A stretch of DNA of 64,000 nucleotides from Escherichia coli (GTDB lineage: Bacteria; Pseudomonadota; Gammaproteobacteria; Enterobacterales; Enterobacteriaceae): the NCBI RefSeq assembly GCF_041248615.1, contig NZ_CP158426.1. One strand, written 5' to 3'. A program made the position numbers. Each line of letters begins with the position of its first letter. The first letter of the stretch is position 1. This document shows positions 6,001 to 9,000 of this stretch, piece after piece.

Positions 6001-9000
6001 GATCGTTACTGGTACGGTCCCACCAGCCGTATCTCGCCGGAAGCGCCGGTGCCCGTGGTTAAAGTAAATACCATCGAAGAACGTCCGGGCGGCGCGGCTA
6101 ACGTGGCGATGAATATCGCTTCTCTCGGTGCTAATGCACGCCTGGTCGGGTTGACGGGCATTGACGATGCGGCGCGCGCGCTGAGTAAATCTCTGGCCGA
6201 CGTCAACGTCAAATGCGACTTTGTTTCTGTACCGACGCATCCGACTATCACCAAATTACGGGTACTTTCCCGCAACCAACAGCTGATCCGTCTGGATTTC
6301 GAAGAAGGTTTCGAAGGGGTTGATCCGCAGCCGCTGCACGAGCGGATTAATCAGGCACTGAGTTCGATTGGCGCGCTGGTGCTTTCTGACTACGCCAAAG
6401 GTGCGCTGGCAAGCGTACAGCAGATGATCCAACTGGCGCGTAAAGCGGGTGTTCCGGTGCTGATTGATCCAAAAGGTACCGATTTTGAGCGCTACCGCGG
6501 CGCTACGCTGTTAACGCCGAATCTCTCGGAATTTGAAGCTGTTGTCGGTAAATGTAAGACCGAAGAAGAGATTGTTGAGCGCGGCATGAAACTGATTGCC
6601 GATTACGAACTCTCGGCTCTGTTAGTGACCCGTTCCGAACAGGGTATGTCGCTGCTGCAACCGGGTAAAGCACCGCTGCATATGCCAACTCAGGCGCAGG
6701 AAGTATATGACGTTACCGGTGCGGGCGACACGGTGATTGGCGTCCTGGCGGCAACGCTGGCTGCGGGTAATTCGCTGGAAGAAGCCTGCTTCTTTGCCAA
6801 TGCGGCGGCAGGCGTGGTGGTCGGCAAACTGGGGACATCCACGGTTTCGCCGATCGAGCTGGAAAATGCAGTACGTGGACGTGCAGATACCGGCTTTGGT
6901 GTGATGACCGAAGAGGAACTGAAGCTTGCTGTAGCGGCGGCGCGTAAACGCGGTGAAAAAGTGGTGATGACCAACGGCGTCTTCGACATCCTGCACGCCG
7001 GGCACGTCTCCTATCTGGCAAATGCCCGCAAACTGGGTGACCGCCTGATTGTCGCTGTGAACAGCGATGCCTCCACCAAACGGCTGAAAGGGGATTCCCG
7101 CCCCGTTAACCCGCTCGAACAGCGTATGATTGTGCTGGGCGCACTGGAAGCGGTCGACTGGGTGGTGTCGTTTGAAGAAGACACGCCGCAGCGCTTAATT
7201 GCCGGGATCCTGCCAGACCTGCTGGTGAAAGGTGGCGACTATAAACCAGAAGAGATTGCCGGGAGTAAAGAAGTCTGGGCCAACGGCGGCGAAGTGCTGG
7301 TGCTCAACTTTGAAGACGGTTGCTCGACGACCAACATCATCAAGAAGATCCAACAGGATAAAAAAGGCTAACCGGAAAGCGTTTCACAGATCTCGCTTCG
7401 TACCTGGCAGGCCTATTGACGCTGTTGTTTTTTCAACCTAAAGTAAAGGAACAAGGGTAAGGGAGGATTTCTCCCCCCTCTGATCAGTTGTTAGTAAGTC
7501 GGGAAACTTAACAGTAACAACACAACCAGTATGATGACGAACTTCATCATAACCCTTTCCTTCTGTAAGGCCCCTTCTTCGGGAGGGGCTTTCCCGTTTC
7601 AGCCCCTTGCTGACTCCCCGATTGTTGATGAGCGCCGGACCCCGCGCAACGCTTTCCCTGAGGTAGTTTTGCCTTCCCCGAGTGGTCACGCAAAACGCTG
7701 CAACGACCTGAGCATTTGCAGTTTTTTGCGGAACGCAGATATAAAAAATCCCCGGCCTTTTGGGCCAGGGATGTTCATAGTTGAAAATTTATTCTACGTT
7801 TTCTGCGACGGGAGTTGTTGAGGTTAAGGGGGAAGTCAATGCCGCCAGCGAGCCGCCTGAAACGCCAATTTCATTGAGTAAGGAGTCAATCAGCGGTGCC
7901 TGTGTGCGGTAAGAGAGTGCGGCTGATAACGCTTGTTCCGCCAGGTTTCCGCCCCCTACATTACCCGTGTTTGCATCACCCGCAGCGCTGCCACGATTCA
8001 GACCATCGACCTGAATAATCTTGATACCGTCAATAGATTTCATCGGCTCAACGGATTTTTCTATTACCGCAGGTAGCGCCTGCAACAAGGCCAGTTTGAA
8101 TTTAAGGCTAGTTTGCTCGTCAGAAAGTACGTTGATAGCGTCGTTCAGCGCACGTTGTGCTTCTGCTTCCGCCAGACCCTTTTTACGTGTAGCTTCGGCT
8201 AACTCAACGATCGCCGCCGCCTGCATCTCTGCGGCTTCTTTTTCTGCTTTCGCCCGCACGGTCAGTTCAACCGCTTTGGTTTCTGCATCCTGCGCGGCAG
8301 CGATTAGGGCAACTTGTTTAGCACGATCGGCTTCTGCGGTCTGGCGAGTTGTTTCTACGTTTTGCTGGGCGCTTACCGCTTCTGCAAGTGCAAGGTTGGC
8401 ACGCGCTTCCGCTTGTGACTGTTGTTCCGATTTGGCGGCAATCGCGATCGATTTCGTCTGGTTAGCGATTTCGGTGACCTGCTGCTGTTCGATCTCTTTA
8501 ATGCGAACTTCACGTTCAGCTTCAACTTTTCTGGAACGGACGGCCTGTTCGCGGTCGATTTCTGTTTCCTGAATCTGTCGTTCAGCCAGAATTCGCGTCT
8601 GCTCAGCTTCCCGACGACGCTCGGCCTCAAAAGCCGCAATTTTCGCATTCTGCTCAGCGGTACGGGTTTTAACCTGCTGCTCCTGCTCAAGCGTCATAAA
8701 CGCTTCTTGTTGTTCAATCTCCAGCTTCCGCGAAAGCGCATCACGGTTTTTCTCACGCACCGCAACTTCTACATCCTGTTCAACTTCGTTACGTTCGCGA
8801 CGACGGCGCTCCGTCTCCTGCGTCAGCTTGGTTAAACCTTCGGCGTCAAAGGCGTTGTTAGGATTGAAATGTTCTTTCGACGTCTGGTTAAAGTTGGTAA
8901 GTGAAACGCTTTCCAGTTCCAGACCGTTTTTCGACAGATCTTCAGCTACGGTATTTTGTACTCCCTGCACGAAGTTCTCGCGGGTATCCTGTAACTCATG

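What the first reader, a model, noticed from the sequence alone, without database searches (positions are those of the whole stretch)
7416..7600. ibs/sib type I toxin-antitoxin module in the hldE-yqiK spacer, apparently single-copy
The minus strand encodes a 19-aa hydrophobic peptide (MMKFVIILVVLLLLSFPTY), the Ibs toxin pattern. The plus strand carries a promoter-like element (TTGACG-17-TAAAGT) and about 145 nt ending in a hairpin plus U-tract, fully antisense to the ORF, as expected for a Sib antitoxin RNA. Such tiny ORFs are missed by the six-frame track; the listed 96-aa ORF 7531..7821 is a shadow of this locus. From memory, K-12 carries two tandem copies (sibD/ibsD and sibE/ibsE) at this locus; I see only one here, and the remaining ~190 bp (7596..7788) holds hairpins but no second ibs ORF.
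Basis: partly seen in the sequence, partly recalled or inferred. Interest (0 to 1): 0.55.

Follow-up and report, generated by a model that had tools for sequence, protein, structure and literature searches.

The report
Known sibE/ibsE toxin-antitoxin, single copy
This is the well-known E. coli Sib/Ibs type I toxin-antitoxin module (the sibE/ibsE copy) between hldE and yqiK, and having one copy here instead of K-12's two is a common, already recorded strain difference, so the finding is correct but ordinary.

Summary
Rfam's SIB_RNA model hits window 7416-7565 (+) at 141 bits (threshold 56), and this is its only hit in the 64 kb. The 19-aa ORF MMKFVIILVVLLLLSFPTY lies at 7550..7491 (-) and differs from K-12 IbsE by one residue (L4F). 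RefSeq annotates the identical protein as ibsE in E. coli ST2747, whose sequence matches the window 100%.

Transferring K-12's annotated ends puts the Sib RNA at 7451-7594. K-12's spacer is 794 bp against 417 bp here. K-12 holds two ~357-bp units about 376 bp apart, and the window holds one, of the E type.

The "remaining ~190 bp" belongs to that repeat unit. It carries the likely ibs promoter and the yqiK terminator.

The single-copy layout occurs in 1,325 of 5,426 complete E. coli genomes (24%), including strains 536 and E2348/69. It has also been reported for Salmonella. E. albertii has both E-type and D-type units, so the single copy is most likely a loss of the sibD/ibsD unit.

Both long ORFs across the locus are non-conserved shadows. 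Verdict: already known, low interest.

The parts
7416..7444 (+). Sib promoter: -35 TTGACG (7416-7421), 17-nt spacer, -10 TAAAGT (7439-7444)
   Evidence: Promoter scan. The element is conserved in all nine homologous units as TTGACG-17-TA[A/G]AGT. It lies 7 nt upstream of the transferred K-12 sibE 5' end.
7451..7594 (+). Sib antitoxin RNA (sibE ortholog), 144 nt, starting with A
   Evidence: The ends are transferred from K-12 sibE (3195097-3195240) through a gap-free alignment. The Rfam SIB_RNA hit at 7416-7565 scores 141 bits. The fold gives -49.4 kcal/mol, z = -2.5.
7567..7592 (+). Sib terminator hairpin (GC-rich stem, UUCG loop) followed by a weak U-tract
   Evidence: Fold. The K-12 sibE 3' end maps 2 nt downstream of it.
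7491..7550 (-). ibs toxin ORF, 19 aa plus stop: MMKFVIILVVLLLLSFPTY (IbsE with L4F)
   Evidence: It is identical to RefSeq WP_001387082.1, annotated ibsE in strains ST2747 and 536. It matches K-12 IbsE at 18 of 19 residues.
7558..7562 (-). Likely Shine-Dalgarno sequence (AAGGA) of ibs, 7 nt before the ATG, inside the TRD2 target region
   Evidence: Read from the sequence. Han 2010 (PMC2943612) places the TRD2 target in the translation initiation region.
7497..7519 (+). Equivalent of SibC target recognition domain TRD1 (+46..+68)
   Evidence: Mapped through the alignment of the five K-12 sib genes with the window. The domain is defined in PMC2943612.
7550..7569 (+). Equivalent of SibC target recognition domain TRD2 (+99..+115)
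   Evidence: PMC2943612.
7621..7649 (-). Inferred ibs promoter: -35 TTGCGC (7649-7644), 17-nt spacer, -10 AACAAT (7626-7621), predicted start near 7612
   Evidence: Inference. Han 2010 reports an 18-nt 5' overhang of ibsC mRNA over SibC, which puts the ibs start near 7612 here, and these weak hexamers sit at the right distance. The generic scan did not call this promoter.
7451..7612 (-). Inferred ibs mRNA, about 162 nt, complementary to the whole Sib RNA
   Evidence: By analogy with the ibsC (159 nt) and ibsD (163 nt) mRNAs. The fold gives -62.8 kcal/mol, z = -3.8.
7595..7772 (.). Tail of the ~357-bp repeat unit, specific to the hldE-yqiK locus and duplicated together with sib/ibs in K-12
   Evidence: It is not shared with the sibA/B or sibC loci. 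It gives one place per single-copy genome and two per two-copy genome.
7738..7772 (-). yqiK intrinsic terminator: 10-bp stem at 7772..7748, then a T-run
   Evidence: Terminator scan. It lies directly downstream of the yqiK stop codon at 7789.

Best explanation
The locus is the E. coli sibE/ibsE type I toxin-antitoxin module.

The minus strand makes an ibs mRNA of about 160 nt that encodes a 19-residue hydrophobic inner-membrane peptide (IbsE with L4F). The plus strand makes a 144-nt Sib RNA from its own sigma-70 promoter, starting with A at 7451. Because the two RNAs come from the same DNA, Sib is perfectly complementary to the ibs mRNA.

Sib first contacts the mRNA through two regions. TRD1 lies within the ORF, and TRD2 lies over the Shine-Dalgarno sequence and start codon. 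Pairing then spreads, which blocks translation and creates an RNase III substrate, so the toxin is not made. If Sib is lost, the peptide depolarises the membrane or lowers ATP, and growth stops.

The window has one unit where K-12 has two. The most likely reason is that the yqiK-proximal sibD/ibsD unit was deleted, probably by recombination between the two ~357-bp direct repeats in their near-identical terminal ~50 bp.

Shown here: sequence identity, anatomy, copy number and its population frequency. Inferred from K-12 and Salmonella experiments: transcription, repression and toxicity.
For: Identity of the module:
- SIB_RNA scores 141 bits against a gathering score of 56, with one hit in the 64 kb.
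- The ORF lies at 7550..7491 and matches K-12 IbsE at 18 of 19 residues. RefSeq annotates the identical protein as ibsE in strains ST2747 and 536.
- The window is 100% identical to E. coli ST2747 across the locus.
- The unit is 95.0% identical to the K-12 E unit and 91.9% to the D unit. It sits next to hldE, as sibE does in K-12.

Copy number and direction of change:
- The K-12 spacer is 794 bp against 417 bp here, and its two units lie 375-377 bp apart.
- 1,325 of 5,426 complete E. coli genomes have the single-copy layout.
- E. albertii and Escherichia sp. E1V33 carry two tandem units at this locus. The yqiK-proximal peptide of E. albertii equals K-12 IbsD.
- E-type units group together across species with 74% bootstrap support. 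The two units of one genome group together in 0% (K-12) and 2.8% (E. albertii) of replicates.

Mechanism, from the literature:
- Han 2010, PMC2943612: TRD1 and TRD2, an ibs mRNA of about 160 nt with an 18-nt 5' overhang, and RNase III cleavage.
- Review PMC8309996: IbsC depolarises the membrane, residues 6-19 matter for toxicity, and N-terminal residues other than V5 are dispensable.
- Preprint 10.1101/2025.05.26.656083: Salmonella IbsA, encoded at this same locus, inhibits the Fo sector of ATP synthase.
- PMC12956327: SibC, SibD and SibE start with A and are NAD-capped.
Against: - There is no expression or toxicity data for this strain.
- The ibs promoter is weak (3 of 6 and 4 of 6 matches to consensus). 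The generic scan did not call it.
- The Sib terminator's U-tract is poor.
- The deletion direction rests on 358-bp units. Bootstrap support for the E/D split is only 74%, and only three sites are fixed between the types. E1V33's hldE-proximal unit does not group cleanly with the E type, so gene conversion blurs the picture.
Confidence: 0.92

Rival explanations
1. The module is sibE/ibsE, but one copy is the ancestral state. On this view K-12-like genomes gained the second unit by a later tandem duplication, and nothing was lost here.
For: Salmonella Typhimurium has a single ibs gene in the same yqiK-rfaE spacer. Single-copy genomes include several diverged lineages, at 100%, 97.8% and ~94% identity to the window. 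Bootstrap support for the E/D split is only moderate.
Against: E. albertii, an outgroup to E. coli, has both units. Its yqiK-proximal peptide is identical to K-12 IbsD, and its hldE-proximal unit groups with the E type. The two units of one genome almost never group together (0% and 2.8% of bootstrap replicates), which argues against independent recent duplications.
Confidence: 0.2
2. The locus is a decaying, non-functional remnant of a Sib/Ibs module.
For: The ibs promoter and the Sib U-tract are weak by consensus. A neighbouring paralogous unit has apparently been lost from this lineage.
Against: The ORF is intact and differs from IbsE by one conservative change, at a position reported as dispensable for IbsC toxicity. 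The same peptide is encoded in strain 536, whose unit DNA is ~4.5% diverged. The full-length covariance-model match scores 141 bits. The Sib promoter and the A at +1 are conserved in all units. The weak ibs promoter and poor U-tract are also features of the functional K-12 copies.
Confidence: 0.04
3. The single copy is an assembly artefact caused by collapse of two 91%-identical 377-bp tandem repeats.
For: Tandem repeats can collapse in short-read assemblies.
Against: 1,325 complete-level genomes from many laboratories show the same layout. Ten independent genomes are 100% identical to the window over 1,017 bp spanning both flanking genes. Units that differ by 9% are easy to assemble apart.
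Confidence: 0.01

Closest known systems
sibE/ibsE of E. coli K-12 MG1655 (b4611/b4666)
   Same: It sits at the same genomic position, next to hldE. The peptide matches at 18 of 19 residues. The ~357-bp unit is 95% identical, including the Sib promoter, the A at +1, the terminator, the tail and the yqiK-type hairpin.
   Different: The peptide carries L4F, from one nucleotide change at 7541. There are five substitutions within the Sib transcript, three of them in the TRD2-equivalent region (7563, 7565, 7566), where the window has the state seen in K-12 sibD. The -10 box is TAAAGT, as in sibD, rather than TAGAGT. No sibD/ibsD unit follows it.
sibD/ibsD of E. coli K-12 (b4447/b4664)
   Same: It belongs to the same family and the same repeat unit, with the same tail, and is 91.9% identical.
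   Different: IbsD is MMKLVIILIVLLLVSFAAY, which differs from the window peptide at 5 of 19 positions. The fixed E-versus-D differences at 7488, 7494 and 7499 all show the E state in the window. This unit is absent from the window.
sibA/ibsA of Salmonella Typhimurium (yqiK-rfaE spacer)
   Same: It is a single Sib/Ibs module in the same intergenic region and encodes a 19-aa toxin. It has experimental evidence for growth arrest and for ATP synthase Fo as the target (preprint 10.1101/2025.05.26.656083).
   Different: It comes from a different species, and its sequence was not compared here. Its Sib core does not match the exact pattern used.
sibC/ibsC of E. coli K-12 (the mechanistic reference)
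   Same: The architecture is the same. TRD1, TRD2, the start-codon hairpin and the terminator all align.
   Different: It lies at a different locus (fau-serA) and has no shared tail. The TRD sequences diverge, and these are what give cognate specificity.

Membership tests
Sib RNA (Rfam RF00113) | Covariance-model score at or above the curated gathering threshold over the full model | tested here: met
   141 bits against 56, model positions 1-147, E = 4e-29.
Sib RNA (Rfam RF00113) | Encoded fully antisense to an ibs ORF, with its own promoter and terminator | tested here: met
   The Sib RNA at 7451-7594 contains the ORF at 7491-7550 on the opposite strand. The promoter is at 7416-7444 and the hairpin at 7567-7592.
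Sib RNA (Rfam RF00113) | Expressed as an abundant RNA of about 140 nt | not testable with these tools
   This needs a northern blot or RNA-seq. The K-12 ends were transferred by alignment only.
Ibs toxin family | An 18-19 aa hydrophobic peptide alignable to IbsA-E (MMK/R ... SF..Y) | tested here: met
   It matches annotated K-12 IbsE at 18 of 19 residues and aligns with IbsA-D. RefSeq names the identical protein WP_001387082.1 an Ibs family toxin.
Ibs toxin family | Toxic when overproduced (membrane depolarisation or ATP drop) | not testable with these tools
   This is known for IbsC and for Salmonella IbsA. L4F lies in the N-terminal part reported as dispensable for IbsC toxicity.
Type I toxin-antitoxin system | The antisense RNA represses toxin synthesis by pairing with the toxin mRNA | not testable with these tools
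   Complementarity is perfect by construction, since both RNAs come from one DNA segment. Repression was shown for the K-12 pairs.
Tandem sibD-sibE arrangement of K-12 | Two units in the hldE-yqiK spacer | tested here: not met
   There is one unit. The spacer is 417 bp against 794 bp, and no second SIB_RNA hit appears at E <= 10.

The most novel reading that the evidence does not exclude
The single-copy allele may be a derived deletion of the sibD/ibsD paralog, tied to particular lineages and carried by about a quarter of E. coli, including strains 536, E2348/69 and ATCC 25922. The surviving E-type unit has sibD-like states in its -10 box and TRD2 region. If so, these strains are natural ibsD/sibD knock-outs. 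They could be used to ask what the paralogs contribute and whether specificity drifts once a neighbouring paralog is gone.
Probability: 0.6. Interest if true: 0.2.

Novelty: already known. Interest (0 to 1): 0.1.

Why it matters
It matters little beyond annotation. The module is a textbook type I toxin-antitoxin pair, and its ibs gene is already annotated in the matching RefSeq genome. Variation in ibs copy number between strains and species has been published, and a single copy at this very locus is described for Salmonella. There are two modest gains. First, the Sib RNA itself is not annotated in the ST2747 record and can be placed at 7451-7594. Second, the data give a frequency for the copy-number polymorphism (24% single copy) and indicate that it is a loss of the D unit rather than a lack of duplication.

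Tried and rejected
- My first peptide comparison used IbsA-E sequences recalled from memory, and I had IbsD and IbsE swapped. I replaced them with the annotated K-12 CDS translations.
- A 311-bp query across K-12's E-to-D junction was meant to count two-copy genomes. It was confounded because the tool joined out-of-order pieces in single-copy genomes (for example H53). I replaced it with a query carrying 300 bp of each flanking gene.
- Fozo et al. 2008 (PMC2597788), the founding paper, is not held. I used the 2010 papers and later reviews instead.
- NCBIfam could not be run on a 19-aa peptide.
- A permissive Rfam scan of 7300-7900 for a degraded second copy found only the reverse-strand echo of the same locus (29 bits) and chance-level hits.
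- The E. whittamii (L013) and Escherichia sp. MOD1-EC7003 (L016) loci are cut just after the first unit, so their copy number could not be read.
- The exact-pattern scan returned no Salmonella or Citrobacter locus, so the tree could not be rooted outside Escherichia.
- I considered whether the window's unit is a simple E/D crossover chimera. I rejected this because D-like sites are scattered rather than forming one block. The pattern fits a crossover in the near-identical terminal ~50 bp, plus shared ancestral states or gene conversion.

Full report
**Observation**

The region was read on both strands.
- The minus strand carries ATGATGAAGTTCGTCATCATACTGGTTGTGTTGTTACTGTTAAGTTTCCCGACTTACTAA at 7550..7491. 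It encodes MMKFVIILVVLLLLSFPTY.
- A pattern search for short hydrophobic Ibs-like ORFs found no other in the 64 kb.
- The plus strand has TTGACG (7416-7421), 17 nt, then TAAAGT (7439-7444).
- Rfam's SIB_RNA model (RF00113) matches 7416-7565 on the plus strand over its whole length. It scores 141 bits against a gathering score of 56, and it is the only Sib hit in the window.
- A permissive scan of 7300-7900 (E <= 10) found no degraded second copy. It returned only a 29-bit echo on the opposite strand of the same locus and chance-level hits.

**Identity**

The window is 100% identical to E. coli strain ST2747 and to nine other complete genomes over 1,017 bp spanning hldE, the spacer and yqiK. 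In ST2747, RefSeq annotates this ORF as ibsE. The protein is WP_001387082.1, named "type I toxin-antitoxin system Ibs family toxin". The same protein is annotated in strain 536.

K-12 MG1655's annotation shows this order: yqiK, sibD/ibsD, sibE/ibsE, hldE.

Translating the annotated K-12 CDSs gives these peptides:

| Peptide | Sequence |
|---|---|
| IbsA | MMKHVIILVILLVISFQAY |
| IbsB | MMKLLIIVVLLVISFPAY |
| IbsC | MMRLVIILIVLLLISFSAY |
| IbsD | MMKLVIILIVLLLVSFAAY |
| IbsE | MMKLVIILVVLLLLSFPTY |
| window | MMKFVIILVVLLLLSFPTY |

The window peptide is therefore IbsE with L4F, caused by one nucleotide change at 7541. My own first comparison from memory had D and E swapped and was discarded.

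**Anatomy**

The alignment of the window spacer with K-12 has no gaps for the first 240 positions. This lets K-12's annotated ends be transferred directly.
- The Sib RNA runs 7451-7594 (144 nt). It starts with A, 7 nt after the -10 box.
- The ibs CDS maps to 7491-7550, exactly onto the ORF.
- The RNA ends in a GC-rich hairpin with a UUCG loop at 7567-7592. Its U-tract is weak, and the generic terminator scan missed it.

Han et al. [quoted passage not shown] Applied here, that places the ibs start near 7612. On the minus strand, TTGCGC (7649-7644), 17 nt and AACAAT (7626-7621) sit at the right distance. This promoter is inferred, not shown.

The equivalents of SibC's TRD1 and TRD2 map to 7497-7519 and 7550-7569. 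TRD2 covers the Shine-Dalgarno sequence (AAGGA, 7562-7558) and the start codon.

**Copy number**

K-12's spacer is 794 bp and the window's is 417 bp. K-12 holds two units of about 357 bp. Each runs from the Sib -35 box to the end of an A-rich hairpin, the units are 91% identical, and their starts lie 375-377 bp apart.

The window's ~190 bp downstream of Sib (7595-7772) is collinear with the tail of those units, so it is part of the duplicated unit. It holds the inferred ibs promoter. It also holds the intrinsic terminator of yqiK (stem 7772..7748 plus a T-run).

The tail is specific to this locus. It is not shared with sibA/B or sibC. It also occurs once per single-copy genome and twice per two-copy genome.

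The window's unit is 95.0% identical to K-12's E unit and 91.9% to the D unit. It also lies next to hldE, so it is the sibE/ibsE ortholog both by position and by sequence.

**Frequency**

A query with 300 bp of each flanking gene can be covered at 80% or more in one place only by single-copy genomes. This was true for 1,325 of 5,426 complete E. coli genomes (24%). The rest peak at 69% coverage with two places.

Single-copy genomes include 536, E2348/69, ATCC 25922 and a Nissle derivative. All 30 nearest relatives of the window are single-copy.

The literature already records this kind of variation:
- Ibs counts range from 1 to 7 per genome in enterobacteria (PMC2887945, Table 1).
- S. Typhimurium has a single ibs in the same yqiK-rfaE spacer, "unlike E. 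coli MG1655" (preprint 10.1101/2025.05.26.656083).

**Direction of change**

An exact-pattern scan of species-representative genomes with the Sib core returned 11 loci.
- E. albertii and Escherichia sp. E1V33 each have two units 377 bp apart between hldE and yqiK.
- The yqiK-proximal peptide of E. albertii is identical to K-12 IbsD.
- Its hldE-proximal peptide is IbsE-like and has F4.

In a neighbour-joining tree of the units, the E-type units group together: window, 536, K-12 E, E. albertii E and a further single-copy E. coli. They separate from the D-type units with 74% bootstrap support. The two units of one genome group together in 0% (K-12) and 2.8% (E. albertii) of replicates.

The duplication therefore predates the split of E. 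coli and E. albertii. The single copy here is most likely a loss of the D unit. D-like sites in the window's unit are scattered rather than forming one block. That fits a crossover in the near-identical terminal ~50 bp, plus shared ancestral states or gene conversion, rather than a mid-unit chimera.

Support is moderate because the sequences are short, and no Salmonella unit was available to root the tree.

**Shadow ORFs**

The plus-strand ORF starting at the ATGATGAC of the Sib hairpin is 96 aa here. In the other eight homologous units it is 27-65 aa, with frame changes. On the minus strand, the reading frame of the 83-aa ORF stays open for 40-144 aa across the units.

**Mechanism (from the literature, not tested here)**

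- Sib pairs with the ibs mRNA through TRD1 and TRD2. Pairing then spreads, translation is blocked and RNase III cleaves the duplex.
- IbsC depolarises the membrane. Residues 6-19 matter for toxicity, while N-terminal residues other than V5 are dispensable, so L4F is unlikely to abolish activity.
- Salmonella IbsA, encoded at this same locus, binds the a and b subunits of the Fo sector and lowers ATP.
- SibC, SibD and SibE start with A and are NAD-capped in a ppGpp-dependent way (PMC12956327). The window keeps the A at +1.

**Verdict**

The element is already known and already annotated, and the single-copy state is a common polymorphism. Interest is low.

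Noticed in passing
window 11031-11179 (+): An FMN riboswitch (RF00050, 120.9 bits against a gathering score of 66.2). I did not check which gene lies downstream.
   Followed up: no
window 52606-52669 (-): An ES173 sRNA (RF02753) matches at full length with 99 bits against a gathering score of 90.
   Followed up: no
window 7488, 7494, 7499: These are the only three sites fixed between all E-type and all D-type units across E. coli, E. albertii and E1V33. They cluster in the ibs 3' end, at or just before the start of the TRD1-equivalent region (7497-7519). 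This fits the idea that TRD1 carries paralog discrimination.
   Followed up: partly
window 7439-7444 and 7563-7566: The window's Sib -10 box (TAAAGT) and three TRD2-region bases carry the state of K-12 sibD rather than K-12 sibE (TAGAGT; ATAC against CTGT). E. albertii and E1V33 units show both states, so this may be old polymorphism or gene conversion.
   Followed up: partly
window 7508-7535 (+): A promoter-like site, TTAACA-16-TATGAT (10 of 12 matches), lies inside the Sib/ibs overlap and includes the ATGATG of the start-codon hairpin. It is probably a by-product of that conserved sequence.
   Followed up: no
window 7773-7800 (yqiK 3' end and flank): The YqiK C-terminus differs between strains...TTPVAENVE here...TTPVEEKAE in K-12 and ...TTPVEEKTE in 536. 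The ~16 bp between the terminator hairpin and the yqiK stop codon is also unusually diverged.
   Followed up: partly
L009 2706-3194 (Pseudocitrobacter faecalis, fau-serA locus): Two sibC-type cores lie 377 bp apart, the same spacing as the D/E tandem in Escherichia but at a different locus.
   Followed up: no
L007 (Pluralibacter gergoviae) and L008 (Kluyvera genomosp. 1): D/E-type Sib cores at 80-82% identity occur in loci without hldE, yqiK, fau or serA nearby. In L007 the core comes with an Ibs-like ORF, MMKLVIILVILLVISFAAY. The genomic context was not determined.
   Followed up: no
NZ_CP158187.1 (E. coli EC0900), hits H30 and H100: Only the hldE part of the query matches in this complete genome (query 1-366 of 1,017). 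The sib/ibs spacer and the yqiK end appear to be missing or interrupted there.
   Followed up: no
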